Below are positions 32,654 through 60,118 of a stretch of DNA of 64,000 nt, one piece after another. Position numbers and translations under genes: made by a program. The notes beneath the pieces are model-generated. The model was not told the DNA's origin, ran no database searches, and was given only the letters and a program-made list of their open reading frames with translations. Each line of letters begins with the position of its first letter. Positions within the stretch are counted from its first letter, which is position 1. Source of the stretch: Parcubacteria group bacterium (GTDB taxonomy: Bacteria > Patescibacteriota > Minisyncoccia > UBA6257 > Colwellbacteraceae); assembly GCA_041649615.1 (NCBI GenBank), contig JBAZMT010000001.1, positions 26,981 to 90,980 on the forward strand, given 5' to 3'.

Positions 32654-34066
32654 CTAACGGGATAGAAGAAGGGGAGTAATATCCGAGATGTTTCCGGCGC
32701 CCATTAGGACGAGGATATCGCCCTTTTTTAAGGAGAGCTTAGCTATGCTTGGTTTAATATTTTTAACATTCTTAATATAAGTTGCTTTTGAAACCTGGAT
32801 TCCCGCCTTCGTGGGAATGACGGAAGATGGGAGATTATTAATATCGCGCGCGAGGGATTTGGAGTTTTTGGTTTTGGATAATTCATCTCTTCCTTTGGGA
32901 TTATAGGCATCAAGAAGAAGAACGTAATCGGCGTCGTTCCAAGAGGAAACGAAATCTTTATACAAAGCGGTGAGCCTTCGTTGTTGATGAGGCTCAAAAC
33001 AGACGGCGATACTCTGGCTTGGAAATTTTTCGCGGAGCGCTTGCAAGGTCGCTTTTATTTCCGTTGGATGATGAGCGTAATCGTCATAAACTTTAACGCC
33101 GTTTTTCGTAACGCCTTTATACTCAATTCGACGCCAAACCCCTTTGAATTCCGATAAGGCGCTTAAAATTGTTTTCTCGTTTATTCCTAACTTCTCTCCA
33201 AGTTTATATGCGGCAAGAGCGTTCATTATATTGTGTGTTCCCGGAATTTTGATAACGCGTTTTATTTTTTGAATTTCGGATTTGTTTTTTTCTGAAAAAT
33301 TAATTATGTTCCCCCATCCTTTTAAGCGGGGGATTAGAGATGCCGAATTTTTGTTGTCGCCGTTCAGGATTATATCTCCTTTTTTCGGAACGGATTTGAG
33401 AAACTTCAAAAACGAATTCTTGACGGCCTTCAAATCTTCATAAAAATCAACGTGCTCCAGATCAATGTTCGTGACAATCGCGGCGTACGGCCTGTAATGC
33501 CAAAAGGCGCCTTTATATTCGTCGGCTTCAATCACGAGCCAGTCACTTTTACCGTGTCGCATATTCCAACCGTTCAATTTGGTTCCAATAATGACCGTAG
33601 GGTCCATTTTAGCCTTAATAAGGATCGTTGAGACCATTGCGGTCGTAGTGCTCTTGCCGTGACTGCCGGCGATGGCGATTGTCTTATACTTCTTTGTTAA
33701 TTCTCCCAGAGCTTCGGGATAGGTCTCTCGCTTAATATCCAAATTATCCGCCTTCTGTAATTCGGAGTTATCTAAGGGTATAGCGGCTGAATAGATAACT
33801 AAATCAGCCTTTTCGGGCAAATTTACCGATTTGTGCCCAATTTTGACCTTTATCCCGTCTTTCTTTAATTCCCTGGTAATTTGACTTTCTACGGCATCAG
33901 AACCTGTTACGAGCCAATTTTCGGCCAAAAACCAACGAGCTAAGGAGCTCATTCCAATGCCGCCTATACCGATGAAATGAACCACTTTTCTGTTGGCCTG
34001 ATAGGGGAGACTGACGCCTGAGCGAACTTTAGGTTTTACAAATTTAGACATATTCGGATACAACAT
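32654..34066 (-). CDS. murC: UDP-N-acetylmuramate--L-alanine ligase
   Basis: VHFIGIGGIGMSSLARWF Rossmann N-terminus, Mur ligase P-loop GSHGKSTTTAM, C-terminal KKGDILVLMGAGNI. True start may be the Met at 34051. Contains an in-frame copy of the palindromic repeat (residues SVIPTKAGIQ). Confidence 0.85.
   Translation of the reverse strand: MLYPNMSKFVKPKVRSGVSLPYQANRKVVHFIGIGGIGMSSLARWFLAENWLVTGSDAVESQITRELKKDGIKVKIGHKSVNLPEKADLVIYSAAIPLDNSELQKADNLDIKRETYPEALGELTKKYKTIAIAGSHGKSTTTAMVSTILIKAKMDPTVIIGTKLNGWNMRHGKSDWLVIEADEYKGAFWHYRPYAAIVTNIDLEHVDFYEDLKAVKNSFLKFLKSVPKKGDIILNGDNKNSASLIPRLKGWGNIINFSEKNKSEIQKIKRVIKIPGTHNIMNALAAYKLGEKLGINEKTILSALSEFKGVWRRIEYKGVTKNGVKVYDDYAHHPTEIKATLQALREKFPSQSIAVCFEPHQQRRLTALYKDFVSSWNDADYVLLLDAYNPKGRDELSKTKNSKSLARDINNLPSSVIPTKAGIQVSKATYIKNVKNIKPSIAKLSLKKGDILVLMGAGNISDITPLLLSR
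32797..32823. repeat. palindromic repeat element copy A (GGATTCCCGCcttcGTGGGAATGACGG), inside murC coding sequence
   Basis: 8-bp inverted repeat ATTCCCGC/GTGGGAAT with 4-nt loop. Shares flanks aacCTGG...GAATGACrGAA with the other copies. Translated in-frame as SVIPTKAGIQ within murC. Confidence 0.8.
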
Positions 34067-34068
34067 AC

Positions 34069-34096
34069 CGGATTCCCGGCGTACCGGGAATGACAG
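34069..34096. repeat. palindromic repeat element copy B (CGGATTCCCGGcgtaCCGGGAATGACAGAA)
   Basis: Perfect 8-bp stem ATTCCCGG/CCGGGAAT, loop CGTA. Lies 3 bp upstream of the annotated murC start. Confidence 0.8.
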
Positions 34097-34526
34097 AAAA
34101 AAAGAGAGGTAGAAGGAATTAAATATAGATATATACTAGCGGGATCAAAAATTAAAATTCAAAGAAGGGAAGGGATATCAAATAATATGTGTGTCGCAAA
34201 AGGTGCATTATGCGACATATGATTAAGATGCGCAAGCCTACTCCCCCTACATCTCCTCCTACATATTACCCATAACCTCCCTTGCCAATTTAGCGAGAGC
34301 ATCAAAAAGCAAACTTAAGACATTCAATAAAGCCTTCGCGGCCGGCAAAATGTATTGCCATGAATTCTTTAAAGCCTCAAGCACTTTTTGAAATTCCGGA
34401 GCTGAGTCCATGACTCTTATTATAGCTCAAACATGAAGAGACGTTAAAAGCGTTAAACGCCGAAATGTGAAAACGGTGAAGACGGATATGAAAACATCAC
34501 GCTTGGCTCCAGACTGTGCGGACGGG

Positions 34527-35741
34527 CTAAAAATAATTGTTCGGGTCCATGGTGGTACCGACAGGGACAACTCCGGCACCCGCGAAACCTTTAAGCTCCA
34601 TCGTTTGGTAAACTCCGAAGTGTAAGTGAGGACCGGTAGCGTAACCGGTGTTTCCCGAATAGCCGATTATCTCTCCTTGCGTGACAGACTGGCCCACGGA
34701 AACCGATTGTTGCGACAGGTGGGCGTAAAGGGTAAAGAAATTGTCATCATGCTTTATGACGATGTATTTGCCGTATTGATAATTACCATTATTGCCAACG
34801 GCTAATATTCTTCCCGAGGCCGCGGCGATGATGGGCGTGCCGATAGGCATTCCATAATCGTTTCCGTTGTGAAAGCCGGTCTTATAAGCCGTTTTGGCGA
34901 AATCCGTGGCGCCGTACCGCTGGGTCATAATCCGTGAGCCGGTGAAAGGATTTTTAAGGTATCCCCTGCCCGGCGCCAAGGCGGCGTTGAAGTTCTTTCT
35001 AAGAACCGCTTCCAATCCTTCAATTTCCTCATTGATACTTTCTTGTTTCTTTTCCAGTTCGGAAAGCTGGCGTTGAAAAGCCGATTCCTGATTCTTCGTT
35101 TCTTTGAGAAGAGTTTCTTTATACGATTTCTGGTCTTGCACTATCACTTTGCGGTTTTTGAGATTAAGCTGTTCGTTCACCAAACCGGTTTTCTTGGAAT
35201 CAGTATCTTTGATGTTTTCATCAAGAGCGGACGACAAGTTTCTAAGCAAAACGATTTCGTTCCCTAGGGATGCCTGAAGTTCGTCAAGGTTTGAGAGTTC
35301 CGTAACGCTGTCGGCAAGACTCTTACTTGAAAGAAAAGTTTCCAGAACGCCGACTTTTTCACGCTGGTTTATTTCCCTGATGATCGTCGAAATACTCGCT
35401 TTCTTTTCGGATATCATTCTTTCCGTATCGGAGAGCTGAATGCCCAGATTCTCAAGCTCAAGAGTGAGCTTGTCTATATTTATTTCACTCCCTTTGATGT
35501 TCAGTTCAAGATTCTTGATGGTATATTCGGTGCTTTGGATTTCGCGTGAAAGCGATTTGCTCTGGGAACTTACGTTGTCAAGTTTGCCTTGAGTATCGTT
35601 GATCTGGCTTTGAACGTTTTCCAGTTCTTTGCTTTTCGCATCAATGCGCGCTCTTAAGTCGGCTTCGTTTTCCGCGAAAGCCACCGGAACGCTTCCCAGT
35701 AAGAACAATATAAAGACCAGAACGTTAAGAGAACGCTTCAT
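34527..35741 (-). CDS. M23-family peptidase with N-terminal coiled coil (EnvC-like murein hydrolase/activator)
   Basis: Signal peptide, approx. 250 aa coiled coil, C-terminal M23 motifs HNGNDYGMP...HLHFGVY. Confidence 0.8.
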   Translation of the reverse strand: MKRSLNVLVFILFLLGSVPVAFAENEADLRARIDAKSKELENVQSQINDTQGKLDNVSSQSKSLSREIQSTEYTIKNLELNIKGSEINIDKLTLELENLGIQLSDTERMISEKKASISTIIREINQREKVGVLETFLSSKSLADSVTELSNLDELQASLGNEIVLLRNLSSALDENIKDTDSKKTGLVNEQLNLKNRKVIVQDQKSYKETLLKETKNQESAFQRQLSELEKKQESINEEIEGLEAVLRKNFNAALAPGRGYLKNPFTGSRIMTQRYGATDFAKTAYKTGFHNGNDYGMPIGTPIIAAASGRILAVGNNGNYQYGKYIVIKHDDNFFTLYAHLSQQSVSVGQSVTQGEIIGYSGNTGYATGPHLHFGVYQTMELKGFAGAGVVPVGTTMDPNNYF

Positions 35742-35747
35742 GACGTT

Positions 35748-37136
35748 TTATTCGGAAATTTTTTCCAGAGCTTTATTAATTCGGGAAATGCTTTCTTCTT
35801 TACCCAAGCCTTCCATTATTTCAAAAGGTCCCGGAGATTCTTTAGACCCAGAAAGAGCGACTCTTAACGGCCAGAGATACTCCCCTTTCTTTCCTTCGGG
35901 AATTATGGCGAAAATGGATGCTTCCAAATTTTCTTCGGCGAATTTACCGGTTTCCGAAATTACCGAGAGCAATTTTTCCAAATTTTCTTTGATATTCCCC
36001 TTTTCGCCTTTCCAATAAAGTAAGTCGGTCGGATAATCCGGAGATTCAAAGAAAAACCGTACAGCATCTTCTAAGTCAGATAATTTTTCTAGCCGGGTTT
36101 TGACGGCATTCATAATACTCGGAGTAAGCCGCCAGTCTTTGGGGATGAAGTCCTGTCCCCTATTTGTAAGCTCTTCCGCGGGAATAATTTCCGAAATATA
36201 TTTTTTATTCAGCCAATTCAGTTTTTGAAAATCAAAAACCGCTCCCCCTTTTTGAATTCGGGAAAAATCAAATTCTTTAACCAAATCTTCTTTGGAGAAC
36301 ACCTCTCTGTCGTCTTTCGGATGCCACGAAAGAAGCGCCAAAAAATTAATAATCGCTTCGGACAAATATCCCTTGTCAAAAAATTCAACAAGAGCCGTGT
36401 CTCCTCCTCTTTTGGACATCTTGCTTCGATCAGGATTCAAGATAAGCGGCAAATGTCCAAAAACCGGTTCTTTCGCGCCTAAAGCTTCAAAGAGAGCGAT
36501 TTGCTTCGGAGTATTCGCCAAATGATCTTCGCCGCGAATAACGTGAGTGATTTCCATTTCTATGTCATCAACGACGACAGAAAAATTGTAAAGAGGTTCT
36601 TCAAGAGATTTAGCGACAACCACATCGCCGATAAGCGAAGCGTCGTAGCTCACTTCTCCCCGAATCATATCTTTAAAAGATATTTTTTTGTGAGGCATTC
36701 GGAATCGCCAGACGTAAGGTTCACCCGAAGCGATTCTTTTGTCCGATTCTTCTTTGGAAATCACGGCGCACTTACCCGAATAAACGAAAGGTTTCTTTTC
36801 TTTTTCAGCTTTGATTCGCTCCGCGTCAAGTTCACTTTCGGAACAAAAGCAAGGGTAGACTTTATCTTTTTTAATCAGGTTTTCCAGACGCTCTTTGTAA
36901 AGATTCGTTCGTTCGCTTTGTCTGTAAAATTCGTCCCAGTCAAGACCAAGCTTTTTTAAGCCTTCCACGATACTTTCTTCGTATTCTTTTTTGGAACGCT
37001 CCTTGTCCGTGTCTTCAATCCGCAGAATGAATTTGCCGCCGTTTTGACGAGCGAAAAGCCATACAAAAAGACCGGCGCGAGCCGTGCCGATATGCATCAT
37101 TCCCGTGGGAGATGGAGCCAATCTGACTTTAACCAC
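35748..37136 (-). CDS. gltX: glutamate--tRNA ligase
   Basis: PSPTGMMHIGTAR (HIGH), KMSKRGG (KMSKS), class I catalytic core. 462 aa. Confidence 0.9.
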   Translation of the reverse strand: MVKVRLAPSPTGMMHIGTARAGLFVWLFARQNGGKFILRIEDTDKERSKKEYEESIVEGLKKLGLDWDEFYRQSERTNLYKERLENLIKKDKVYPCFCSESELDAERIKAEKEKKPFVYSGKCAVISKEESDKRIASGEPYVWRFRMPHKKISFKDMIRGEVSYDASLIGDVVVAKSLEEPLYNFSVVVDDIEMEITHVIRGEDHLANTPKQIALFEALGAKEPVFGHLPLILNPDRSKMSKRGGDTALVEFFDKGYLSEAIINFLALLSWHPKDDREVFSKEDLVKEFDFSRIQKGGAVFDFQKLNWLNKKYISEIIPAEELTNRGQDFIPKDWRLTPSIMNAVKTRLEKLSDLEDAVRFFFESPDYPTDLLYWKGEKGNIKENLEKLLSVISETGKFAEENLEASIFAIIPEGKKGEYLWPLRVALSGSKESPGPFEIMEGLGKEESISRINKALEKISE

Positions 37137-38286
37137 GAGCTAATTCTACCAGTTTTTCGGCAATTTTCCGAGCCGCATCCGGTTTTGCGAATTCTTTTGC
37201 CGAAGCGGCCATTGATTCCAAAAGGGAGGTTTTGGAAATCAGTTCTCCCAAGACTCGCAAAAATATAGACGGATTTAATTCCTCTTCCCTTAAAACTATG
37301 CAGGCTTTGGCGCGTTCGTAAGCGAGCGCGTTTTTAAGCTGATGGTTTTGAGCCGCTTCGGGAAGAGGAATCAAAATTGACGGCTTGCCAAGCGCGGCAA
37401 ATTCAAAGATGGATGATCCGGCGCGAGAAATGAAAATGTCGGCGGCGGCGAAAACTTCTTTAATATCGCGGTCAATGAAATCGGTCATTCGATAACCCGA
37501 TGAATTCATTTCTTCGGGAGAATCAAAAAGATTGCCGATCGCTCCACTTACTTCGGCAAACGATTTCGCTCCGGTCTGGTGAAATATCTGGAGGCCCATT
37601 CCAAGCATTTCGGAGACGGACGAAACTACGAGATCATTCATTCTCTGCGAACCTTGAGAGCCGCCGATAACAACCGCTAAAAGTTTTTCCGGGTTAAATC
37701 CCAAAGAAAGTTTGGCGGCACGTTTATCCGGCAGATTTTCAAAAACGATCGGACGCAAAGGATTTCCGACCACCTCGCTTTTTTTTCGGTCTTTGTCGCG
37801 AAGATCGTCCTTTGCGTCTTCAAACGCCAAAAATATTTTTCTTGCGAAACGAGCCGAAATTCGGGTCGTGATACTCGGAACGGAATCCGATTCGTGAATC
37901 ACAACCGGAAGAGAAAAAATCCGACCGGCGATAATCGGCGCTAAACTTCCAGGACCTCCTTTCCCGAAAATCACATCAGGCTTCTCTTTAAAAACAAGCA
38001 TCATGGATTGCACCAAACTCAAAATAAATTTCGGCGCTTCCAAAAAATTTTCAACCGAAAAATATCTTCGCAGTTTGCTCGGAATGATTTTTCTTATTGT
38101 AATTCCCAATTCTTCAAATTTATCCGCATAATCTCCCGGATTACCGACATAAACCAGTCGCAGGATTAGTCCTTTCTTATCCGCGATATTTTTTGCCTCC
38201 GAGCACACCGCGAGAAGCGGATTGATATGACCGGCCGTGCCGCCGCCCGCAAGCATAATTTTTATTTCTTTCTTTTCTCTATCCAT
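37129..38286 (-). CDS. murG: undecaprenyldiphospho-muramoylpentapeptide beta-N-acetylglucosaminyltransferase
   Basis: Start set at the internal Met (MDREKKEIKIMLAGGGTAGHINP). G-loop GGGTGGH and C-terminal GT-B UDP-GlcNAc binding region. Confidence 0.85.
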   Translation of the reverse strand: MDREKKEIKIMLAGGGTAGHINPLLAVCSEAKNIADKKGLILRLVYVGNPGDYADKFEELGITIRKIIPSKLRRYFSVENFLEAPKFILSLVQSMMLVFKEKPDVIFGKGGPGSLAPIIAGRIFSLPVVIHESDSVPSITTRISARFARKIFLAFEDAKDDLRDKDRKKSEVVGNPLRPIVFENLPDKRAAKLSLGFNPEKLLAVVIGGSQGSQRMNDLVVSSVSEMLGMGLQIFHQTGAKSFAEVSGAIGNLFDSPEEMNSSGYRMTDFIDRDIKEVFAAADIFISRAGSSIFEFAALGKPSILIPLPEAAQNHQLKNALAYERAKACIVLREEELNPSIFLRVLGELISKTSLLESMAASAKEFAKPDAARKIAEKLVELARG

Positions 38287-39373: not shown

Positions 39374-39378
39374 AGTAT

Positions 39379-40836: not shown

Positions 40837-40892
40837 ATCTTAAAACTCAAATGTCAAAACCGAAGCATATAAACCCTAAAACTGTGGAAAAG

Positions 40893-44066: not shown

Positions 44067-44067
44067 T

Positions 44068-47796: not shown

Positions 47797-47814
47797 GTTC
47801 AAAATTTCTAATTT

Positions 47815-48180
47815 TCAATTTCTAAACTTTCTCGCATCTTCTACTCGCTCGTAGCCATCAAAATAAACTTTATCTTCCGATAAAACTTTAACCACTTTAT
47901 AACGCCCTTTTGTCCAGACTTCGCCGTTACGAAGGAAGTGAGCGCTCTCCAAAATAATCACGCTCGCTTTCGGTTTGGATAAAACTCCCCCGCCTTTAGT
48001 TTCGCGAAGCGGGATTTCGCCCAAAAGCCAATAATGTTTCTGCCCGTTTTTAAGAAACGGATATTCTTTTCCTTCTTCCAGAGCTTCGGGGAGGCATTCG
48101 CTTTCTTCTCTCCTTCCCTCTTTGAGTTCCTTGATATTTCGGAGCGCAAGATCGGGACAATATTCGGCAATAATGGCCAT
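47815..48180 (-). CDS. hypothetical protein
   Basis: 121-aa ORF, no recognised motif. Divergent from the next ORF. Confidence 0.4.
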   Translation of the reverse strand: MAIIAEYCPDLALRNIKELKEGRREESECLPEALEEGKEYPFLKNGQKHYWLLGEIPLRETKGGGVLSKPKASVIILESAHFLRNGEVWTKGRYKVVKVLSEDKVYFDGYERVEDARKFRN

Positions 48181-51115: not shown

Positions 51116-51288
51116 TGTTCTAAGTATACCTTCTTATTAAAAAGCCGCGAAGGATAATCGCGGCTTTACAAAGTTTTTATTAACGCAATTTTCTCGGAAA
51201 GCGGCTTAACAGGCCGGTCCGACGTGTCACGGAGACTCTCTCCGGTGATGCCTTGCAGAAAACGGGCAAGCTTTAGCTCCTTTCCTCG

Positions 51289-51816: not shown

Positions 51817-51949
51817 GAGCGTTTACCTCCTTTCGCACCAGATTTTTAATTTTCAAAAACCGTACGAACAGACTATACCTTAAAACCGGAAAAGTAAAAT
51901 GTTATCAACAGTTATCCGCCATATTCAGTTGTTATAATGAGAATAACAA

Positions 51950-52812: not shown

Positions 52813-52830
52813 CGTTAAAGAAATTATAAC

Positions 52831-52861
52831 AAAAAATGCCTCAATAATGAGGCATTTTTTG
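52831..52861 (-). terminator. rho-independent terminator downstream of rnpB (bidirectional hairpin)
   Basis: aatgcctcaataatgaggcatt hairpin flanked by A6 and T6, immediately 3' of the RNase P RNA 3' end on the minus strand. Confidence 0.65.
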
Positions 52862-53375
52862 TGCGGCCGGGTAAGCCGGATTCTGTAATCACCTCTCCAG
52901 TTTTACGTCTGTAAAACTGGAGAGGGATGATGGCAATTTATCTAGGTCTAAGATTACTCTTAGACTCAAGCGACTCCCTATGACCCGCTTTTGCTCTTGC
53001 GAGCTATAGCGAGGCATAGTACGGTCTTGCATTCCACAAGGATTTAGCCGTTTCACTTCCGTTTTTTGTCCCTATCACGGAATTAAGCCTTCTACGTTGG
53101 GATGGGGCTCTCCTCAGCTTTTCAGCTCGATATTTCTATCGGCTCGCTTTTGCGCTTGCGCGCTATAGCGTAGCGAAGACGTCACTGCTCGCACCTCTCT
53201 TATCAAATAAATTGGTAAGGACGGCTTTTAACCGCTGTGTTTTTCCCCTCTCCAGTTTTCGTAAAAACTGAGGAGGGAGAAAGTCCAGACTTTCCTCATC
53301 TCATTTCTTAATACTGATTCCCGCTTTCGTGGAAATAACAGAGAGAAACAAAACGCTGCCATCCGGGCCGCAATT
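52862..53375 (-). ncRNA. rnpB: RNase P RNA, bacterial type A (M1 RNA-like), unusually long
   Basis: Minus-strand sequence contains GAGGAAAGUCUGGACUUUC (P4 5' strand, cf. GAGGAAAGUCCGGGCUCC; + strand 53285-53297) and ACAGAAUCCGGCUUA (P4 3' strand; + strand 52872-52886). It also has CCUAGAUAAAUUGCC (cf. CCUAGAUGAAUGAC), GCUUGAG + P17-like hairpin, AAGGCUUAAU...AGGG (cf. AAGGCCAAAUAGGGG) and CCCAUCCCAACGUAGAAGGCU (cf. CCACCCGGAGCAAGGCC). A putative P1 pairs GCGGCC (53363-53372 region) with GGCCGC at the 3' end. Ends are approximate. Confidence 0.65.
53316..53346. repeat. degenerate repeat-like hairpin (GATTCCCGCtttcGTGGAAATAACAGAG), alternatively the P3 helix of rnpB
   Basis: Resembles the repeat consensus with 2 stem mismatches. 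On the minus strand it forms an AUUUCCAC-GAAA-GCGGGAAU hairpin (GNRA loop) at the position expected for RNase P P3. Confidence 0.4.
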
Positions 53376-53412
53376 GTTTATAACATAAAAATGCAACAAC
53401 GTCAATCAACCT

Positions 53413-53439
53413 GAATTCCCGCCTGCGCGGGAATGACAG
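53413..53439. repeat. palindromic repeat element copy C (GAATTCCCGCctgcGCGGGAATGACAG)
   Basis: Stem ATTCCCGC/GCGGGAAT, loop CTGC, flank aacCTGA...GACAGAAAAA. Intergenic between the rnpB 5' end and the ppiB start. Confidence 0.8.
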
Positions 53440-53476
53440 AAAAAGGAAAGAATAAATGTGGTAAAATGGGAAAAAT

Positions 53477-54151
53477 ATGAAAAATAAACTGATAATAGCG
53501 GGACTGGTCGCTTTAGTGGCAACGGCGTCAACGCTTATCTTTTTTGCCGCTAAGACCGAATCAAGTAAAAAGACCGCCGAACCGGAAGAGATAGTAATCA
53601 GCGAAACCGTTCCTTCCGAGGGAATAACGAATGAAGAAACAAATACAAACCAATCAACAAACAAAGTGGAAAATTTTAAACATATCGTAACGCTTGAGAC
53701 ATCTTTGGGAACCATAAAAATAGAAACTTATGACGCTGACGCGCCGAAAACCGTAGAAAACTTTTTGAAGCTCGCGAGCGATGGATTTTATAACGGTGTG
53801 ATGTTTCATCGCGTCATAGACGGATTCATGATCCAAGGCGGAGATCCGACCGGAACGGGCTTTGGAGGTCCCGGATACACGTTCGCGGACGAACTTAATC
53901 CGAAAACGGAGTCATACAAAAACGATTATAAGAAGGGCGTAGTCGCCATGGCGAATTCGGGACCGAATACCAACGGCAGTCAGTTCTTCATAGTGGTTGC
54001 CGATTATCCTTTGCCGCATAATTACACGATTTTTGGAAGGGTCATTGAGGGACAAGATGTGGCGGATAAGATTGCGAAAGTAAAAAGAGATTCAGCCGAT
54101 AAACCGTTAGAAGACGTAGTGATCAGAAAAGCAACCGTAACGGAAAAATGA
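53477..54151 (+). CDS. ppiB: peptidyl-prolyl cis-trans isomerase (cyclophilin type), membrane-anchored
   Basis: FHRVIDGFMIQGGDP...MANSGPNTNGSQFFIV cyclophilin signature. N-terminal TM. Confidence 0.9.
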   Translation: MKNKLIIAGLVALVATASTLIFFAAKTESSKKTAEPEEIVISETVPSEGITNEETNTNQSTNKVENFKHIVTLETSLGTIKIETYDADAPKTVENFLKLASDGFYNGVMFHRVIDGFMIQGGDPTGTGFGGPGYTFADELNPKTESYKNDYKKGVVAMANSGPNTNGSQFFIVVADYPLPHNYTIFGRVIEGQDVADKIAKVKRDSADKPLEDVVIRKATVTEK

Positions 54152-54268
54152 GCAAAAGAAAAACCCGCATCAATAAGATACGGGTTTTAAGGAAAGGAGT
54201 GGGGCAAAAATGTTTTAAGCTTCAATCTTCGTTATAGCATAGATAAACCGATTTGTCAATAGCAGGCT

Positions 54269-55096
54269 TTATTTCCAGGGGAGCTTTAAAGGATTTGAGG
54301 CATCAATCACAAAGCTAGCGGCCGCTTTATGCCCTCCTCCGCCGTATTTAAGGGCGATTCGCGATACGTCCACTTTGCCGTTTGAACGCAAAGAAACTTT
54401 GAGCTTATCCCCTTTTTTACACCAAACGATACCGATGCCTTTGGCTTTAGTTGCGAGAACGTGCCCGATCTCTGAAACAAATACAGGAGAATTCACGGCA
54501 AGACATTTTCGGCCGGCAAATTTGACCCATTCGGCCGTAGAAGAAAGAGTTTCTATGTTCTGTTTGGAAAAGCTAAGAATGGAAGAGCCTTTATTAAAGA
54601 ATTCTTTTCTTTTGTCCGGATTTTCAAAATCTTTTATTAGTTTGTCCCAAGTCTTGAGGTCAAAAGGTAAAGTATCCAAATAAGCCAGATATTCTCTCGT
54701 ACCTTTGAGAGCAAACTTCCAGGTGTCGTTATCCTGAATGTGAAGCAATAGTTTTGGAGCGCTCTTTTTGGGGAAGAAATATTTCCAGGCAAGAATGGCG
54801 CCGGAATTAGTTTCTCCAAAAACGTATTCCGTTGAGACCTTAACCGCCTCGCGCTGGCTCACGTGATGATCCAAAACGACAACTTTTGCGGCTGATTTTA
54901 AAACCGATTTCATTTTATCCTCGGAATAACAATAATCAACCATATACACTTCTCTGCCTTTTAAATCTTTAGGGGGCGAAGAAGGATGCGCGGCGGCGAG
55001 ATATTCGGCTTTGGCGCCGAATTTTTTGCGGGCTGCCCAAGCGGCGCCGAAACCATCGGGGCAATTTTTGTGGTAAATGACGAGGATCTTTTTCAT
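54269..55096 (-). CDS. DHH-family phosphoesterase (NrnA-like)
   Basis: DHH motif I (IYHKNCPDGFGAA), motif III VLDHH. 275 aa. Confidence 0.65.
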   Translation of the reverse strand: MKKILVIYHKNCPDGFGAAWAARKKFGAKAEYLAAAHPSSPPKDLKGREVYMVDYCYSEDKMKSVLKSAAKVVVLDHHVSQREAVKVSTEYVFGETNSGAILAWKYFFPKKSAPKLLLHIQDNDTWKFALKGTREYLAYLDTLPFDLKTWDKLIKDFENPDKRKEFFNKGSSILSFSKQNIETLSSTAEWVKFAGRKCLAVNSPVFVSEIGHVLATKAKGIGIVWCKKGDKLKVSLRSNGKVDVSRIALKYGGGGHKAAASFVIDASNPLKLPWK

Positions 55097-56151
55097 CTAT
55101 ATTTGATTCCCAGGGCTTCAAGAGCGGGAAGTTTTTTGCCTGCGAGAAATTCTAGCATCGCTCCGCCTCCGGTTGAAAGAAAAGAAAATTTCCTTTCCAG
55201 ACCGAAGGAAATAATGGCCGAGGTGGTTTCCCCACCTCCCACAACCGAAAAACAATCCGTCTTTGCTATCGCCTCCGCCACCGTTTCCGTTCCATGACTG
55301 AAAGCTTTGCGTTCAAACATGCCGAGCGGCCCCGCCCAAACAACGGTTTTGGAAGAGCGTACAATTTCCGCAAATTTTTTGGCCGTGTTCGGCCCGATGT
55401 CTAAGATATTCTTCTTAGAAGTTCGGAAATCAAAAGGATACAAGACTTTGGGATTTTTAATCAGTTTCTTCGCTTCCGGAATAAGCGATTTTTCAAAAAG
55501 AGAATTCATCACATCATAACCGGCAGCCTTGAGAGCGGTATTCCCCACTCCCCCTCCCAAGAGAACGTAATCCGCTTTAGCGAGAAGATTTTTGATGACG
55601 GGCAGCTTGCTTTTCATTTTTCCGCCGCCGACAATCAAGGTAAAAGGATGCGCCGGATGAGCCATTATTTTTTTAAGGGCCACTAGTTCGGTTTTCATTA
55701 TCGGGCCTTCAAGGCTCGTTAAAAATTCGGTGATGCCCACGTTTGAGGCTTGCGTCCGGTGAGCGGTCGCGAAATCGTCATTTATAAAAACGTCGCCGAA
55801 AGAGGCAAACGTTCTCGCGAGTGCGGAACTGTTTTTCATCTCTCCGGAAAAGAATCTAGTGTTTTCCAGAGCGAAAATACCTTTTTTTACAAGCACGCGC
55901 TCCAGGTGCTTTTCGGGAGAGCCTTCCAGGAAAGATATTCTCCGGCGGGATTTTTCGGAGAGCTCCTTAATAATCGGTTTTAGACTCAAGGAACCATCAA
56001 CTCCGTTCGGTCTTCCCCGGTGACTCAAGATGACGATTCGTCCGAATTTGGGAGACAGATTTTTTACGGACTCCACCGCTCTTTTCATTCGCAGAGAAGA
56101 AGAAACATCGTGAGCGTCAATATCAAGATTTAAACGGACAACCGCGTTCAT
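55093..56151 (-). CDS. pgk: phosphoglycerate kinase
   Basis: ILSHRGRP, FINDDFATAHR, GGGKMKSK, GGGETTSAI motifs. N-terminus somewhat short; an alternative upstream start is possible. Confidence 0.85.
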   Translation of the reverse strand: MNAVVRLNLDIDAHDVSSSLRMKRAVESVKNLSPKFGRIVILSHRGRPNGVDGSLSLKPIIKELSEKSRRRISFLEGSPEKHLERVLVKKGIFALENTRFFSGEMKNSSALARTFASFGDVFINDDFATAHRTQASNVGITEFLTSLEGPIMKTELVALKKIMAHPAHPFTLIVGGGKMKSKLPVIKNLLAKADYVLLGGGVGNTALKAAGYDVMNSLFEKSLIPEAKKLIKNPKVLYPFDFRTSKKNILDIGPNTAKKFAEIVRSSKTVVWAGPLGMFERKAFSHGTETVAEAIAKTDCFSVVGGGETTSAIISFGLERKFSFLSTGGGAMLEFLAGKKLPALEALGIKYR

Positions 56152-56219
56152 ATTTCCTTACTATAGTAAAGAAATCTCAAAACTCAAAACTCATCAGCCT
56201 CTAATCTTTTAAACTAAAA

Positions 56220-56243
56220 CCCCCTCCGCCAATGGCGGAGGGG
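56220..56243 (-). terminator. rho-independent terminator for the upstream minus-strand surface-protein gene
   Basis: cccctccgccaatggcggagggg hairpin; on the minus strand it is followed by a T-rich run. Confidence 0.5.
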
Positions 56244-56353
56244 GAAAGGTCTCGGGGCAAAGTAATCCTCGGAGTTGAACTTGCGTTCGTCCCTCGGAGA
56301 TAACTTCACTCGCAGGCGTATTGTAGCAGATTATCTCTTAAAAGTCAATGCTT

Positions 56354-58012
56354 TTAATTTTCCGGAGTGGCAGAAACAGAATTCTTTTGTCCTTTTTCTT
56401 CCTTCCGTTCTTTTTTTCTCATAACAACAAGGTAAACGATGGTGATGAGCATAAGAATAAAGAGAAGCAAGAAGAGCCAGCTGCCGGTGATTGATTCGGC
56501 GAAGCTAGAAAGAGAGGCGAGGAAATTAAATCGGCTACCACCGACAGTTACGGCAATGTAGGAATTAACCGTCTGTGCTCTTTTGGCCGCATCGGTGAAA
56601 TCAAGAGAAGAATTAAAGACGAGGTTCTGACCCTTGTCGGCGTCATCGTGTATTTTCACTTTGACGATAATGATTCCCTGACTGCCCTTTTCAACGTCTC
56701 CGATCGTGAAGGTCAAGTTATTGGCCATCCACGAGGTCGGTTTAACGTTCGCGTCCACGTATTCCGTTCCGTATGGAAGAAGGACTTTTATAACGGAACT
56801 GGTGATTTTTCCGTTTGAAGCGTTCCTATAGGTGAGAACGTAATCAATCGTGTCGCCCGCTTTGGGATCAAGATCGCTTACCGAAGGATCAAGCAAGACG
56901 CCTGAATCGTTCGTTACGACAATCGGCGGATTAACGATTATGCTGCCGCTAGCAGTTTTAAAGTATCTTATTTCACCGTAATTCGTGCCGTAGGAATTTT
57001 CCGCAACCGCGCGATAGTAATAAGTAACATTCGCGGCCAAATTGGAAACGTTAATGTAGTAGTCGTTTTGTGAAGCATAAGAAGGAACGGACACGCTTGA
57101 GGATCTGATGTAGAGATCGCTTGAAGTGGGACCGTACTCAAACCACATGGTCGCGGCAGAGCCGTTAGCGCTTACTCTTCCCTGAAGAGTAGCGGAATTT
57201 TGAAGAACGTTAGAGTGCCAAACGGTCGTTACTTGAGGAGCGTTGTAGTAAGTGGGAGGAACATAACCTCCGGAAGTATTGAAGCTCCGAGTGGAACTGT
57301 AGTCCGTGCCGTACGAATTGCGGGCAATCAACCGGTAATAGTAAGTAGTGTCTTCGTTCAAACTGTAAACCGAAGCGGAAACATTGGTGTTTCCATAATA
57401 GCTTCCGAGAGACCGAGTGCTCGTTCTCTGCGACAAATTGCCGCTTCGAGTACCGTATTCAAACCAGTATTCGGTTGAGGAACCGTTCGGGCTAACATAG
57501 CCTTCCAAAGAAGCCGAATTACGAGTGATGCTATAGGCGGAAGAAATTGAAACTTCAGGAGCACTGCCAACGGGACCCGGGGGGTTGTAACCGCCGGAAG
57601 TGGTAAAGGTTTTATCTTGACCATACTGAATTTCTCCTTGGCTGTTTTTGGCCACTACGTGAAACCTATAAGTAGTTCCCGTTTCAAGTCCGGAGATCGT
57701 TTTTGAAACAGCCGTATATCCGCTTCCGGATCCGATGGAAGAAGAGCTTGTTAACACATCAAACATGCTGGAACCGGAGGTAGTGTATTCAAACCAATAT
57801 TCGGTTGAAACGCCGTTAGGATTGACCTTTCCATTTAAGGTAACAGAACTTTGGGAAACATTTGTCGCATCGCTTGAAATAGCCGAAGGAGCGGAAGCCA
57901 AGGCTATGGCCGGGATAAGCGACGGTAAAACAGCGGTTATAGCCGCAATGGGTAATATTTTTCTAAACATAGTCATAAGGCGGAGCTTATCATAATTACT
58001 TAATTCTGTCAA
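56354..58012 (-). CDS. secreted surface protein with three tandem beta-sandwich (FN3/PKD-like) repeats, DUF11-like domain and C-terminal TM anchor
   Basis: Signal peptide; three repeats each ending ...TYYYR(A/L)(I/V)A(R/E)NSYGT(D/N)Y...F(N/K)T(S/A)GG; C-terminal hydrophobic anchor + basic tail. Confidence 0.6.
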   Translation of the reverse strand: MTELSNYDKLRLMTMFRKILPIAAITAVLPSLIPAIALASAPSAISSDATNVSQSSVTLNGKVNPNGVSTEYWFEYTTSGSSMFDVLTSSSSIGSGSGYTAVSKTISGLETGTTYRFHVVAKNSQGEIQYGQDKTFTTSGGYNPPGPVGSAPEVSISSAYSITRNSASLEGYVSPNGSSTEYWFEYGTRSGNLSQRTSTRSLGSYYGNTNVSASVYSLNEDTTYYYRLIARNSYGTDYSSTRSFNTSGGYVPPTYYNAPQVTTVWHSNVLQNSATLQGRVSANGSAATMWFEYGPTSSDLYIRSSSVSVPSYASQNDYYINVSNLAANVTYYYRAVAENSYGTNYGEIRYFKTASGSIIVNPPIVVTNDSGVLLDPSVSDLDPKAGDTIDYVLTYRNASNGKITSSVIKVLLPYGTEYVDANVKPTSWMANNLTFTIGDVEKGSQGIIIVKVKIHDDADKGQNLVFNSSLDFTDAAKRAQTVNSYIAVTVGGSRFNFLASLSSFAESITGSWLFLLLFILMLITIVYLVVMRKKERKEEKGQKNSVSATPEN

Positions 58013-58111
58013 GCCTCTCTTCGGGAGAGCTTCACCGCCGCATTATAGGGATTTTTGAATAAAAAAAGAACCCTCATCCGCTAAGATTTGGGTTCGTTCT
58101 GATAAGGAGGA

Positions 58112-58744
58112 TTAATTGCTCGGGGTCCATGTTTTGGTGGTCCCCGTGATGACCGTTCCGTCCAGCAATTTTATCATGGGCTGGATGGTGGTTTTTGAGC
58201 AAGGTTTTTCTATCCTTTGCTCAATCCTATGATTTCCTTGATAGACGCGCCAGGGTTCGCTTCTGCCGTTCAATTTGAACGACCACTGCGCAACTTCCGA
58301 CGTATCTCCCGTCAGGGCAAAAGTCATGATGAGGAAGGTTTCTCCGTCCACCGTTTCCTCTCGAATTGGCGGATCAAGATAGATACTAAGCTCCTCGGAA
58401 GGCACTTTTGTCTTTTGGGGTGTCTTTGTAGGCGCAGGTGTAGGTGTCTTGGTCTTGACTGGTCCCTTTGTTTTAACGGGTTTTTGCGTCTTCTTAGGCG
58501 CTTCCGTTTTGGCAGGGCACCCAGTTTTAACGCATATGCACGTCTCAACGGGTGAGTAAGCGTTCTCTACCTCGACATCTCTGTGCTCCGCAGGCCTTTG
58601 AAAAAATACTCCCCAAACGATCAGGCCGATTATGGCTAAACCGAGTACTACAATAGCCACGAATATTGCGATAATCCAGCCTTTTTGGTCGTCTCTTGGA
58701 GTTTCCTCATCTGGATCTGGGGGAACAATGGGCGGTCTCGGCAT
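58112..58744 (-). CDS. hypothetical membrane-anchored protein with Pro/Thr/Lys-rich linker
   Basis: TM IIAIFVAIVVLGLAIIGLIVWGV; PKKTQKPVKTKGPVKTKTPTPAPTKTPQKTKVP low-complexity linker. Confidence 0.5.
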   Translation of the reverse strand: MPRPPIVPPDPDEETPRDDQKGWIIAIFVAIVVLGLAIIGLIVWGVFFQRPAEHRDVEVENAYSPVETCICVKTGCPAKTEAPKKTQKPVKTKGPVKTKTPTPAPTKTPQKTKVPSEELSIYLDPPIREETVDGETFLIMTFALTGDTSEVAQWSFKLNGRSEPWRVYQGNHRIEQRIEKPCSKTTIQPMIKLLDGTVITGTTKTWTPSN

Positions 58745-58871
58745 TTCAGGTACCTCCTTTTCTAAAATTTTTATTGTCCAGCTTTCATTTTATCATAAAA
58801 GAACGATTTTGTCAATCTTCCTCCGCTGAAGCTAAGAAAGGATACAGCATAGGGATGATAACAAAAAACCT

Positions 58872-58898
58872 GGATTCCCGGTACGCCGGGAATGACAG
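58872..58898. repeat. palindromic repeat element copy D (GGATTCCCGGtacgCCGGGAATGACAG)
   Basis: Perfect stem ATTCCCGG/CCGGGAAT, loop TACG, flank aaaCCTGG...GACAGAAGG. Intergenic, 3' of the gtrA-like gene. Confidence 0.8.
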
Positions 58899-58929
58899 AA
58901 GGAGCGCATGTCCGCCCATAATAATGTAA

Positions 58930-59355
58930 TTACTTTTTGAAGACGATAAATTTATAGCCTAAGAAGTTCCAAATAAGAGAAATACCCGTGGCGAGGACGG
59001 CTCCGACATTTACCCATAACGCTTGAGAAAGACCGAACATCGGTTTGATGAAAGTTGAAATCAGATAAACTATCCCCGAATTTATCGCCCATCCGATAAT
59101 GCTTACAATCAAAAATTGACCGACTTGAAAAACGCGAACGGATTCTTTGTCTTTGAACGTCCAAAATTTATTCCACAAATAACTATTCGTGGTCGCGATT
59201 ATAAAGGCGGTGCTCGTTAACGGAATGATTGAGATTCCTTTCGTTATGCCCGTTATAAAAATGAGGAAGTTCAATACGCCAAAGTAGATCGCCGTATTAA
59301 GAACTCCGATCACGGCAAATTTTCCGAATTGAAGAAAAAGCTTTTTGATGTCCAT
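58930..59355 (-). CDS. GtrA-family membrane protein
   Basis: Start set at the internal Met (MDIKKLFLQFGKFAVIGVLNTAIYFGVLNFL), the typical GtrA N-terminus. The automated ORF extends further only by reading through a palindromic repeat located in the tpiA 3' end. Confidence 0.7.
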   Translation of the reverse strand: MDIKKLFLQFGKFAVIGVLNTAIYFGVLNFLIFITGITKGISIIPLTSTAFIIATTNSYLWNKFWTFKDKESVRVFQVGQFLIVSIIGWAINSGIVYLISTFIKPMFGLSQALWVNVGAVLATGISLIWNFLGYKFIVFKK

Positions 59356-59359
59356 TACT

Positions 59360-60118
59360 TTATTGTACTGGATTCCCGCTTCCGCGGGAATGACGGAGGG
59401 ATGCAATTACTATCGGGACTTCTTTTAATTTTAAACTAGCGCCGCCAACAAGAACACCGGAAACGTCCGGGGCTTCGGCGTATATTTCCGCGTTCGCCGG
59501 ATTAACCGATCCGCCGTAAAGCACTTTAGCTTTTTTACCGAAGATTTTTTGGAATCTTTCCGCCATCGCTTCCATAACCGGCGCCATTTCTTTCAAAGTC
59601 GCATTCCTTCCTCCGCTCGTGGTGCTTATGGCCCAAACGGGTTCGTAGGTGAGAATGATTTTATCCGCCTTTTCTTTCGGAACCCCCGAGAGAGAATCGT
59701 TTAATTGCGCAATAACCGTTTTAATGGCGGATGGAACGCTTGTTCTTTTTCTTTCGCCAACGCAAACAATGGGGATAACGCCCGCGTTTATCGCGGCTAA
59801 AGTTTTTTTGGAAACCGATTCGGAGGTTTCGCCAAAGTTTTTTCTTCGCTCTGAATGACCCAAAATGGCGTATTTAACGCCAAGACTTTCAAGCTGCGCA
59901 AAAGAATACTCCCCCGTGTATGCGCCCTCCGTATAAAATCCGTCTTGCGAGCCCAAGGACGCGTGTTTTAATTTGCCCGCGACAAGAGACAAAAAAGGCG
60001 CCGGCGGACAGACGATGACGTTTGGGGAATCCGAGGCGGAAGCAAGCAATTTCGCTTCGGCAGAAGAAGCGGGATTGCATTTCCAGTTCATAACTACGAG
60101 TTTATCGGAGGTTTTCAT
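59360..60118 (-). CDS. tpiA: triose-phosphate isomerase
   Basis: NWKCN, ILGHSERR, YEPVWAI(S/G)TG motifs. C-terminal 10 residues (SLRHSRGSGNPVQ) are encoded by a copy of the palindromic repeat. Confidence 0.9.
   Translation of the reverse strand: MKTSDKLVVMNWKCNPASSAEAKLLASASDSPNVIVCPPAPFLSLVAGKLKHASLGSQDGFYTEGAYTGEYSFAQLESLGVKYAILGHSERRKNFGETSESVSKKTLAAINAGVIPIVCVGERKRTSVPSAIKTVIAQLNDSLSGVPKEKADKIILTYEPVWAISTTSGGRNATLKEMAPVMEAMAERFQKIFGKKAKVLYGGSVNPANAEIYAEAPDVSGVLVGGASLKLKEVPIVIASLRHSRGSGNPVQ
59370..59396. repeat. palindromic repeat element copy E (GGATTCCCGCttccGCGGGAATGACGG), inside tpiA 3' end
   Basis: Stem ATTCCCGC/GCGGGAAT, loop TTCC. Encodes the last residues of TpiA (RHSRGSGNPVQ*). 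The automated ORF for gtrA read through it as SVIPAEAGIQ. Confidence 0.8.

What the first reader, a model, noticed from the sequence alone, without database searches (positions are those of the whole stretch)
32797..59396. Family of short palindromic repeat elements (RPE/REP-like) scattered through the window
At least five copies of the same 27-35 bp element (consensus aaCCTGGATTCCCGS-N4-SCGGGAATGACRGAAr) occur at 32797, 34069, 53413, 58872 and 59370, plus a degenerate relative at 53316. The 8-bp arms are conserved. The 4-nt loop differs between copies, with compensatory changes in the stem (CCCGC/GCGGG versus CCCGG/CCGGG). That pattern argues for selection on hairpin structure, or for a mobile DNA/RNA hairpin, rather than on a protein sequence. 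Copies sit at gene boundaries (upstream of murC, upstream of rnpB, downstream of gtrA) and inside coding sequence. Their translation gives the peptide ...VIPAxAGIQ..., which I believe also turns up in spurious metagenomic ORF calls; I cannot confirm that here. This looks like a compact MITE/REP-type element family; one or both of its in-frame insertions have reshaped proteins.
Basis: seen in the sequence. Interest (0 to 1): 0.75.

Follow-up and report, generated by a model that had tools for sequence, protein, structure and literature searches.

The report
Known NTS/dRS3 hairpin repeats in Parcubacteria
The repeats are real and belong to a known family of 28-35 bp DNA hairpins (Neisseria NTS/dRS3, the recognition sites of small Ssn single-strand DNA nucleases), found here in a Parcubacteria genome where copies have landed in frame inside essential genes and inside the RNase P RNA.

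Summary
There are five strong copies and one degenerate copy of a ~33-bp element, all in one orientation, where chance predicts none.

The element is not new. Three copies match the 28-nt Neisseria Transformation Sequence (NTS, which contains dRS3) with 1-2 mismatches. Two more match the published Ssn-related-motif (SRM) pattern exactly. The flank bases reported as critical for binding and cutting by SsnA, a ~95-aa GIY-YIG single-strand DNA nuclease, are mostly conserved (Chenal et al. 2025).

The host is a Parcubacteria (CPR) MAG, a group that paper's main text does not mention. No Ssn gene lies in the window. I did find a 100-aa Ssn-like gene in another Patescibacteria MAG, bracketed by identical elements.

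Relatives show presence/absence differences:
- MurC carries an in-frame 11-codon loop insertion.
- TpiA is extended by ~10 residues.
- The degenerate copy sits at the tip of helix P3 of rnpB.

Only the copy upstream of murC is shared, and with one relative only.

Verdict: a real feature and a new member of a known kind. Interest is moderate, and lies in the host phylum and the frequent insertion into genes.

The parts
32793..32825 (-). Copy A. Minus strand reads TTCCGTCATTCCCACGAAGGCGGGAATCCAGGT. It is in frame inside murC, in the Mur_ligase_C domain loop, and encodes SVIPTKAGIQ.
   Evidence: (1 mismatch to NTS). Hairpin weakened to -3.6 kcal/mol. AlphaFold places it in a loop between helix 402-410 and strand 428-432, where local pLDDT is 72-78.
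34066..34098 (-). Copy B. CCCGG/CCGGG stem variant, core ATTCCCGGTACGCCGGGAAT on the minus strand. It lies 16 bp upstream of the true murC start (ATG at 34051).
   Evidence: (exact SRM match). An orthologous but diverged copy is at L001:9960-9984.
53311..53343 (-). Copy C. Degenerate (GTTATTTCCACGAAAGCGGGAATCAG), inserted at the tip of helix P3 of the RNase P RNA gene.
   Evidence: cmscan alignment; RNA fold. The relative's rnpB has a short P3 without it.
53409..53441 (-). Copy D. It lies between the divergent rnpB (5' end at 53374) and the cyclophilin gene (start at 53477). T replaces the C that normally follows the palindrome.
   Evidence: 2 mismatches to NTS; -10.5 kcal/mol.
58868..58900 (-). 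Copy E. CCCGG/CCGGG variant whose core is the exact reverse complement of copy B's core. It lies 34 bp downstream of the gtrA stop, is followed by a T-run, and sits upstream of a strong promoter-like site (58815-58787).
   Evidence: exact SRM match; scored terminator-like.
59366..59398 (-). Copy F. It supplies the last ~10 codons of tpiA (RHSRGSGNPVQ*) and lies 12 bp upstream of the gtrA ATG (59355).
   Evidence: (1 mismatch to NTS). In relative L122, tpiA ends 5 bp before gtrA with no element.
32654..34051 (-). murC (UDP-N-acetylmuramate--L-alanine ligase), host of copy A and flanked upstream by copy B.
   Evidence: Pfam; 100% identical to P0001, 'MAG: Parcubacteria group bacterium'; alignment A1.
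52856..53374 (-). rnpB (bacterial type A RNase P RNA), 519 nt. It scores below the Rfam gathering threshold. Host of copy C.
   Evidence: 72.6 bits, E 1.2e-21, full model 1-367. Relative L122 is 404 nt.
58930..59355 (-). gtrA-family membrane protein gene, bracketed by copies F and E in direct orientation.
   Evidence: Pfam PF04138. The L122 orthologue has no flanking elements.
59360..60118 (-). tpiA (triosephosphate isomerase), with an element-encoded C-terminal extension.
   Evidence: Pfam PF00121.

Best explanation
The six copies are members of the NTS/SRM family of directional DNA hairpin repeats, the family that contains Neisseria dRS3. These repeats are the recognition sites of Ssn, a ~95-100 aa single-domain GIY-YIG endonuclease that acts only on single-stranded DNA.

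Shown here:
- The sequence matches the published NTS or SRM pattern, including the asymmetric flanks: GTC upstream in 5 of 6 copies and C immediately downstream in 5 of 6.
- The 8-bp arms form a stable hairpin in single-stranded DNA.
- The family has spread in this Parcubacteria lineage as ~33-bp insertions. They occur between genes, in frame in coding sequence (5 of the 6 reading frames of the element are open) and in a peripheral helix of RNase P RNA.
- Sites are occupied or empty in different relatives.
- In another Patescibacteria genome, the same 28-nt element brackets an Ssn-like gene in an IS-like inverted arrangement.

Inferred from the published Neisseria and Wolbachia biochemistry:
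- When DNA is single-stranded (replication, repair or uptake of transforming DNA), the hairpin forms. An Ssn encoded elsewhere in this genome, or formerly present, binds the hairpin plus the 3' C and nicks a few nucleotides upstream.
- Nick-associated repair or copying, or mobilisation with the NTS-ssn-NTS unit, seeds new copies.
- The cellular effect is restriction or modulation of incoming single-stranded DNA carrying the sites.

Individual copies may have been co-opted. Copy E looks like the gtrA terminator. The copies inside MurC and rnpB are decaying passengers, tolerated because they sit in a surface loop and at a helix tip.
For: Identity with the known family:
- Chenal et al. 2025 (PMC11893778) define NTS as CGTCATTCCCGCGMAVGCGGGAATCYRG. 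They define an SRM pattern and report the Ssn partner, the directionality, and the critical GTC and 3' C positions.
- Copies at 59368, 32795 and 53411 match NTS with 1, 1 and 2 mismatches. Copies at 58870 and 34068 match the SRM pattern exactly.
- Enrichment: 5 matches against 0 expected. The family is D1 in the de novo repeat search.
- Hairpin energies are given.

Mobility:
- The MurC loop insertion is absent in P0004/7/10/11. It is present as a perfect copy in L182 and differs in others.
- Relative L122 has no element in 20.7 kb. It has a short rnpB P3, and its tpiA stop lies 5 bp from gtrA.
- The murC-upstream copy is shared only with L001. It is at a different position in L181 and absent in L180 and L182.
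- Further in-frame insertions occur in GluRS of L181 and LepA of L183.

Partner gene in the phylum:
- P0268 is a GIY-YIG protein from a Patescibacteria MAG. It sits between dnaK and dnaJ and is flanked by TGTCATTCCCGCGAAAGCGGGAATCCAG on both sides in inverted orientation.
- It belongs to the same subfamily as the NTS-flanked GIY-YIG genes of four other loci: hhalign probability 100%, 55% identity.
Against: - No Ssn or GIY-YIG gene is present in the 64-kb window or in about 75 kb fetched from its closest relatives. The best tblastn E-value is 0.26 and the best HMM E-value is 0.39.
- The rest of the source genome could not be retrieved, so a partner in this organism is unproven.
- That the GIY-YIG subfamily found here is the paper's cd10448/SsnA is inferred from size, single-domain architecture and NTS flanking. 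I had no Neisseria SsnA sequence to compare.
- How copies are made is unknown, even in the published systems.
- Copy D lacks the 3' C reported as most important for binding.
- In Neisseria only 2% of NTS lie in genes. Here 3 of 6 lie inside a gene (two in protein-coding sequence, one in rnpB), so the dynamics differ.
Confidence: 0.75

Rival explanations
1. Orphan fossils. The elements are relics of a past invasion by an NTS-ssn unit and this genome no longer encodes an Ssn. The copies are inert, slowly decaying DNA with no current mechanism. This is a sub-case of the main explanation that differs on present activity.
For: No Ssn gene was found in the window or in the relatives' loci. Two of the six copies are degraded. 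Relatives carry few copies: L122 has 0 in 20.7 kb, L180 has 0 in 21 kb, L001 has 1. The paper reports that 19% of SRM-rich genomes lack an Ssn homologue.
Against: Four copies are perfect 8-bp hairpins with intact flanks. L182 has a perfect copy at 3082-3106 in its 4-kb contig. Lineage-specific insertions imply activity after these lineages diverged (66-74% protein identity). Only 64 kb of the genome was examined.
Confidence: 0.3
2. Host-selected RNA hairpins that act as intrinsic terminators or mRNA-stabilising structures, as proposed for some REP sequences.
For: All six copies are co-oriented with the surrounding minus-strand genes. Copy E is scored terminator-like, with a T-run, and sits between the gtrA stop and the next promoter.
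Against: Only one of the six has a T-run. Copies lie inside murC, tpiA and rnpB and upstream of promoters, where termination would be harmful. The same 28-nt sequence, not just the structure, recurs across many phyla with conserved asymmetric flanks. In L183 the copies occur in both orientations.
Confidence: 0.08
3. Operator sites of a palindrome-binding transcription factor that controls murC, rnpB/ppiase and gtrA.
For: The core is an 8-4-8 palindrome. Three copies lie within 50 bp upstream of gene starts. The murC-upstream copy is retained in L001.
Against: Copies occur inside coding sequence and inside rnpB. The position upstream of murC differs, or the copy is absent, in L180, L181 and L182. 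The orthologous loci of L122 lack the elements altogether. The sequence is identical in unrelated phyla, where it flanks a nuclease gene.
Confidence: 0.03
4. Integration (att) sites for an IS110/Piv-type recombinase or filamentous prophage, as dRS3 is for Nf phages in Neisseria, or DNA-uptake sequences.
For: The core equals dRS3 (ATTCCC-N8-GGGAAT) in five copies. dRS3 is a reported phage-recombinase target. CPR bacteria are thought to rely on DNA uptake (my own knowledge).
Against: No integrase, transposase or prophage genes were found among the 40 window ORFs scanned with Pfam; the remaining ORFs were identified only by synteny with annotated relatives or not at all. Density, about 1 per 10 kb, is far below that of known uptake sequences. 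In Neisseria the NTS lowers rather than promotes transformation.
Confidence: 0.04

Closest known systems
NTS / Ssn-related motifs (SRM) with SsnA GIY-YIG ssDNA nucleases (Chenal et al., Nat Commun 2025, PMC11893778)
   Same: The 28-nt sequence is nearly identical (1-2 mismatches in three copies, exact SRM match in two). The 8-bp hairpin arms, directional flanks (GTC upstream, C downstream), multicopy clustering and gene-bracketing pairs all match. In Patescibacteria locus L183 the same element brackets a ~100-aa single-domain GIY-YIG gene.
   Different: The host is Parcubacteria/Patescibacteria, which the paper's main text does not mention. No ssn gene is in the window. Three of six copies lie inside genes or an RNA gene, against 2% in N. 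meningitidis. There is a private CCCGG/CCGGG stem sub-family. All six copies share one orientation.
Neisseria dRS3 / NIME repeats
   Same: The core ATTCCC-N8-GGGAAT is present in five copies. Copies occur in pairs flanking short segments.
   Different: No RS repeat units lie between copies, so there is no NIME mosaic. No Nf prophage or Piv/IS110 recombinase is nearby.
REP/BIME elements with RAYT (IS200/IS605-like Y1 transposases)
   Same: These are short, single-hairpin, high-copy, mostly intergenic repeats thought to be handled as ssDNA hairpins by a dedicated small nuclease or transposase.
   Different: The sequence is unrelated. The candidate partner is GIY-YIG rather than HUH/Y1. These copies also enter coding sequence.
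Rickettsia palindromic elements (RPE)
   Same: Palindromic repeats inserted in frame into housekeeping genes of a reduced genome, adding peptide segments that are tolerated on the protein surface (review PMC10969869).
   Different: RPEs are ~100-150 bp and encode a longer conserved peptide. These elements are ~33 bp (11 codons) and their sequence is unrelated to the RPE consensus as far as I tested. The 2025 paper lists Rickettsia among SRM-rich genera, so a link is possible but was not examined here.
Correia elements / bacterial MITEs
   Same: Small non-autonomous repeats that can carry terminator or promoter activity and insert near genes.
   Different: MITEs have terminal inverted repeats around an internal body and make target-site duplications. 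Neither is seen here.

Membership tests
NTS/SRM (Ssn-associated hairpin repeats) | Match to the NTS consensus CGTCATTCCCGCGMAVGCGGGAATCYRG or to the SRM degenerate pattern | tested here: met
   Three copies have 1, 1 and 2 mismatches to NTS. Two copies match SRM exactly. The degenerate copy matches neither.
NTS/SRM (Ssn-associated hairpin repeats) | Semi-palindrome able to form a hairpin in single-stranded DNA | tested here: met
   Four copies fold at -8.5 to -10.5 kcal/mol (z -3.4 to -5.5). Two in-gene copies are weakened.
NTS/SRM (Ssn-associated hairpin repeats) | Orientation-defining non-palindromic flanks: three conserved nucleotides upstream and a C immediately after the palindrome | tested here: met
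   GTC is upstream in 5 of 6 copies (GTT in the degenerate one). C is downstream in 5 of 6 (T in copy D).
NTS/SRM (Ssn-associated hairpin repeats) | Over-representation relative to shuffled sequence | tested here: met
   5 matches against 0 in 100 shuffles, within the window only. The genome-wide count could not be tested.
NTS/SRM (Ssn-associated hairpin repeats) | An ssn (cd10448 GIY-YIG, ~95 aa) gene in the same genome, typically flanked by the repeats | tested here: inconclusive
   The gene is absent from the window and from about 75 kb of close relatives. The rest of the genome was not retrievable. In another Patescibacteria MAG the NTS-flanked GIY-YIG gene is present.
NTS/SRM (Ssn-associated hairpin repeats) | Strand-specific cleavage of ssDNA a few nucleotides upstream of the hairpin by the cognate Ssn | not testable with these tools
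   This needs purified protein and oligonucleotides.
dRS3 | 20-bp ATTCCC-N8-GGGAAT | tested here: met
   Five copies match exactly or with 1 mismatch in the extended core. The degenerate copy has 2 mismatches.
dRS3 / NIME | dRS3 pairs flanking 50-150 bp RS repeat units, and use as an Nf-phage integration site | tested here: not met
   No other repeat family lies between copies. No recombinase or phage genes were found among the 40 window ORFs scanned with Pfam.
MITE | Terminal inverted repeats enclosing a body, target-site duplication, and descent from an IS | tested here: not met
   The whole element is one 8-4-8 hairpin plus 6-7 nt asymmetric flanks. No duplicated flank is visible in the aligned copies. 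No empty site close enough in sequence for exact boundaries was available.
REP/RAYT | Association with an IS200/IS605-like Y1 transposase gene flanked by the repeats | tested here: not met
   No such gene was found among the 40 window ORFs scanned with Pfam. The gene found flanked by the repeats in other loci is GIY-YIG.

The most novel reading that the evidence does not exclude
In Patescibacteria the NTS/Ssn pair may be an active hairpin-based mobile system. It would copy its ~33-bp site through a nick-and-copy step that can invert the hairpin. It would also routinely seed in-frame 11-codon insertions into essential genes (murC, tpiA, gltX, lepA) and into structural RNAs such as RNase P P3. 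That would make a GIY-YIG ssDNA nuclease a driver of protein and RNA-loop evolution in ultra-small genomes.

Three observations point this way. Copies B and E are flip/flop isomers. L182 murC carries tandem duplications of the element's 5' half. All six window copies have the NTS-forward sequence on the sense strand.
Probability: 0.15. Interest if true: 0.7.

Novelty: new member of a known kind. Interest (0 to 1): 0.4.

Why it matters
- It extends a recently characterised nuclease/recognition-site system (Ssn/NTS) to the Candidate Phyla Radiation. Those organisms are thought to depend on DNA uptake, so a single-strand DNA restriction-like system could shape gene flow.
- It explains recurrent odd peptides in metagenomic protein calls (VIPAxAGIQ, SFPRxRES, HSRxxGNP) as translations of one DNA hairpin.
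- It gives concrete cases where such a hairpin sits in frame in essential enzymes and in RNase P RNA. These are useful for annotation (wrong starts, false extensions, rnpB scoring below threshold) and for studying tolerance of insertions.
- The Patescibacteria Ssn (P0268) and its perfectly matched sites are a ready enzyme/substrate pair for the ssDNA tool applications proposed for this family.

Tried and rejected
- **Locating the source contig.** The look-up of encoding contigs found no record for the window's own TpiA or MurC. The single metagenome scan, with TpiA, returned only 7 loci and not the source.
- **Genome-collection scan.** I spent the single scan on the lineage-specific stem variant TCATTCCCGGNNNNCCGGGAATC, hoping to hit the source genome. 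It gave 51 scattered hits in many phyla and no Parcubacteria. By my arithmetic about 4 are expected by chance, and several hits look like conserved coding sequence.
- **Viral-contig scan.** It did yield NTS-flanked GIY-YIG genes to use as probes.
- **First Ssn profile search.** The protein database returned only Sphingomonadales-type hits. A low-GC probe from L164 was needed to reach the Patescibacteria homologue.
- **NCBIfam.** It has no model for the Ssn-like protein.
- **Supplements.** The paper's supplements are not held, so I had no Neisseria SsnA sequence and no per-genome SRM counts.
- **Apparent anomaly at 23.6-24.5 kb.** An apparently broken ORF region turned out to be an intact thyA that my crude ORF picker mis-called.
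- **Second hairpin in rnpB.** A search for another hairpin family suggested by two similar hairpins inside rnpB found nothing beyond those.
- **Literature.** I found no paper on Ssn/NTS in CPR, and none of the peptide strings searched (VIPAKAGIQ, IPAKAGI, RLRGND, SFPRKRES) occurred in any of the 20 top-ranked papers listed.
- **Replication strand.** GC skew is flat across 32-64 kb, so the replication strand of the copies could not be assigned.


Full report
**1. The observation**

All five hits are on the + strand, and none appeared in 100 dinucleotide-preserving shuffles. The palindromic core ATTCCCG-N6-CGGGAAT adds the degenerate copy at 53317.

An unsupervised repeat search returns the same six copies as its first-listed family, with the longest unit (39 nt) and the most copies (6) of the 20 families shown.

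I aligned the copies on the minus strand. The element is about 33 bp: yTTCYGTC-ATTCCCGS-N4-SCGGGAAT-CCAGGT. The flanks are asymmetric and conserved.

As single-stranded DNA, four copies fold into 8-bp hairpins of -8.5 to -10.5 kcal/mol (z -3.4 to -5.5). The copies inside MurC and rnpB have lost one or two pairs and fold at -3.6 and -3.0 kcal/mol.

**2. Genomic context**

The window is housekeeping DNA from a Parcubacteria (CPR/Patescibacteria) MAG. Its MurC is 100% identical to P0001, 'MAG: Parcubacteria group bacterium'. Pfam scans of 40 of its ORFs (chosen as the element-flanking genes and those without obvious identity) found cell-wall, glycolysis, nucleotide and transport genes and no transposase, integrase or GIY-YIG gene.

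- **Copy A** lies in frame in the C-terminal domain of MurC and encodes SVIPTKAGIQ.
  - In an alignment of 22 homologues, the closest relatives P0004, P0007, P0010 and P0011 have no insertion there.
  - P0005 and P0009 have a longer insertion ending in SVIPAKAGIQ. Others carry unrelated sequence at the same loop.
  - At DNA level the window has 11 extra codons relative to the empty site in L181.
  - An AlphaFold model (mean pLDDT 87) places the segment between helix 402-410 and strand 428-432, where confidence dips locally.
- **Copy B** is 16 bp upstream of the real MurC start. The alignment shows the start is the ATG at 34051.
- **Copy F** supplies the last ~10 codons of TpiA (RHSRGSGNPVQ*) and lies 12 bp upstream of gtrA. 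In relative L122, tpiA stops 5 bp before gtrA with no element.
- **Copy E** is 34 bp past the gtrA stop. It is followed by a T-run and then a strong promoter-like site, and it is the only copy that looks like a terminator.
- **rnpB** is on the minus strand at 52856-53374. It scores 72.6 bits (E 1e-21), which is below the Rfam gathering score, so the default scan missed it.
- **Copy D** is ~36 bp upstream of the rnpB 5' end, between rnpB and a divergent cyclophilin gene.
- **Copy C**, the degenerate one, is inside rnpB at the tip of helix P3, where it folds as a coaxial extension. The L122 rnpB is 404 nt with a short P3 and no element.

**3. What the element is**

The minus-strand reading GTCATTCCCGCG...GCGGGAATCCAG recalled Neisseria dRS3. 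The literature search led to Chenal et al. 2025 (PMC11893778).

- They define the 28-nt Neisseria Transformation Sequence, CGTCATTCCCGCGMAVGCGGGAATCYRG, which contains dRS3, and a degenerate Ssn-related motif (SRM).
- They show these are bound as ssDNA hairpins and cut a few nucleotides upstream by SsnA.
- SsnA is a 94-aa single-domain GIY-YIG nuclease, often encoded between two copies.
- The three bases upstream of the palindrome matter for cleavage. The C immediately after it matters most for binding. Changing the stem sequence while keeping the structure abolishes activity.

In the window, three copies match NTS with 1, 1 and 2 mismatches, and two match the SRM pattern exactly. GTC upstream is kept in 5 of 6 copies, as is the C downstream. 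On sequence and anatomy these are NTS/SRM elements.

The paper's main text does not mention Patescibacteria.

**4. The partner gene**

No GIY-YIG gene is present in the window or in the loci fetched from its relatives. I tested this with a regex, tblastn and two HMMs. The best E-values were 0.26 and 0.39.

NTS-flanked GIY-YIG genes do occur in four of the roughly 170 element-centred loci taken from the viral and genome collections. Pfam confirms PF01541 for one of them.

Using the low-GC member as a probe, I found P0268, a 100-aa GIY-YIG protein from a Patescibacteria MAG.

- In locus L183 (GCA_964596405.1, 45% GC) it sits between dnaK and dnaJ.
- TGTCATTCCCGCGAAAGCGGGAATCCAG lies upstream in forward orientation.
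- The same 28-mer lies in reverse orientation across the gene's stop codon. This is the IS-like NTS-ssn-NTS layout.
- It aligns to the other NTS-flanked proteins with hhalign probability 100% and 55% identity.
- The same contig has an in-frame pair of elements inside LepA.

So the nuclease/site pair exists in this phylum with the same site sequence. Whether the window's own genome still has the gene could not be tested, because the source genome is in none of the searchable contig collections.

**5. Evidence for mobility rather than conserved sites**

- L122, which has 66% TpiA identity and conserved gene order at tpiA-gtrA with rnpB also present, has no element in 20.7 kb.
- The murC-upstream copy is shared with L001 at the same position, but diverged and with the other stem variant.
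- In L181 an element lies ~50 bp upstream instead. L180 and L182 have none.
- L181 has an in-frame ...SRHSREGENP... insertion in GluRS.
- L182 has a perfect copy in the MurC loop, preceded by tandem partial duplications of the element's 5' half.

No relative is close enough to define exact boundaries or a target duplication.

**6. Details bearing on mechanism**

- The CCCGG/CCGGG stem variant is rare elsewhere. It appeared 0 times among 161 copies sampled from viral contigs, and the pattern TCATTCCCGG-N4-CCGGGAATC gave 51 hits across 185,579 species genomes, none with the window's loops.
- The two window copies that carry this variant (B and E) have cores that are exact reverse complements of one another, while their flanks keep the same orientation.
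  - They are therefore one sub-family related by a hairpin flip, not two independent compensatory events.
  - A flip could arise from gene conversion between oppositely oriented copies, since the arms are symmetric. It could also arise from a nick-and-copy step through the hairpin. I cannot tell which.
- All six copies have the NTS-forward sequence on the minus strand, the sense strand of the surrounding genes. The two-sided binomial p is about 0.03 (my arithmetic).
- In L183 both orientations occur.
- GC skew is flat over 32-64 kb, so I draw no conclusion about the replication strand.

**7. Verdict**

The family has been known since 2025, and its core since the dRS3 descriptions.

What is new here:
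- the host phylum;
- the high fraction of copies inside genes (3 of 6 here, against 2% in N. meningitidis);
- an insertion in RNase P RNA;
- a private stem sub-family with flip isomers.

I rate it a new member of a known kind, of moderate interest.

Noticed in passing
window 34192-34217 (minus strand); also L001, L180, L181, L182: A 26-nt inverted-repeat motif, TGTCGCATAATGCACCTTTTGCGACA, is almost invariant in all five relatives. It lies between a conserved 50-aa ORF and murC, while the surrounding spacer is poorly conserved. It may be a regulatory or RNA element.
   Followed up: no
window 52856-53374 (minus strand): rnpB scores 72.6 bits, below the Rfam gathering score of 100, so a default scan misses it. 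It is 519 nt against 404 nt in relative L122. Besides the P3 element it has other expansions, including two similar long hairpins (CCTCTCCAGTTTT...AAAACTGGAGAGG) at about 52893-52927 and 53246-53279.
   Followed up: partly
window 34072-34091 and 58874-58893: The two CCCGG/CCGGG-stem copies have cores that are exact reverse complements of each other (loops CGTA and TACG) with flanks in the same orientation. This is a flip/flop pair.
   Followed up: partly
L182 3015-3110 (murC of a relative): Upstream of a perfect element inside murC, the 5' half of the element is tandemly duplicated (CTGTCATT x4, CTGTCATTCCCGC x2). This encodes SVITTTTSVIPATSVITTTTSVIPAKAGIQ.
   Followed up: no
L183 9790-10310, 3440-3499 and 19209-19275: In a Patescibacteria MAG, the Ssn-like gene lies between dnaK and dnaJ. 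Its stop codon is supplied by the downstream element (..TGFPLSRE*). A nested-hairpin variant lies upstream at about 9811-9860. Tail-to-tail pairs of two element sub-types occur in the adh_short-hrcA spacer (3440-3499) and, in frame, inside lepA (19209-19275).
   Followed up: partly
window 8898-8919, 32601-32622, 47804-47825: There are three copies (86-100% identical) of a 22-nt AT-rich motif, ATTTCTAATTTTCAATTTCTAA, located at gene ends or short spacers. One lies between the pilin-like gene and the murC stop.
   Followed up: no
window 58930-59406 and 34052-34066: Longest-ORF calling runs through the elements and creates false N-terminal extensions: GtrA gains LHPSVIPAEAGIQYNKV, and MurC gains MLYPN (as in database entry P0001). 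Database Ssn homologues P0129 and P0221 similarly start with element-coded SFPRKRESS.
   Followed up: yes
window 19785-20168 (minus strand): A stand-alone 127-aa PD-(D/E)XK nuclease (PF13366, PDDEXK_3) lies next to tRNA-Gln. I saw no link to the repeats.
   Followed up: no
window 24466-25548 (+): The DHFR domain is fused to a HIT/CwfJ-C-like domain in one ORF. In L001 these are two overlapping genes. In L180 the DHFR gene product is 311 aa with only a DHFR Pfam hit listed, which may be a similar fusion. thyA (23643-24569) overlaps the start of the ORF.
   Followed up: no
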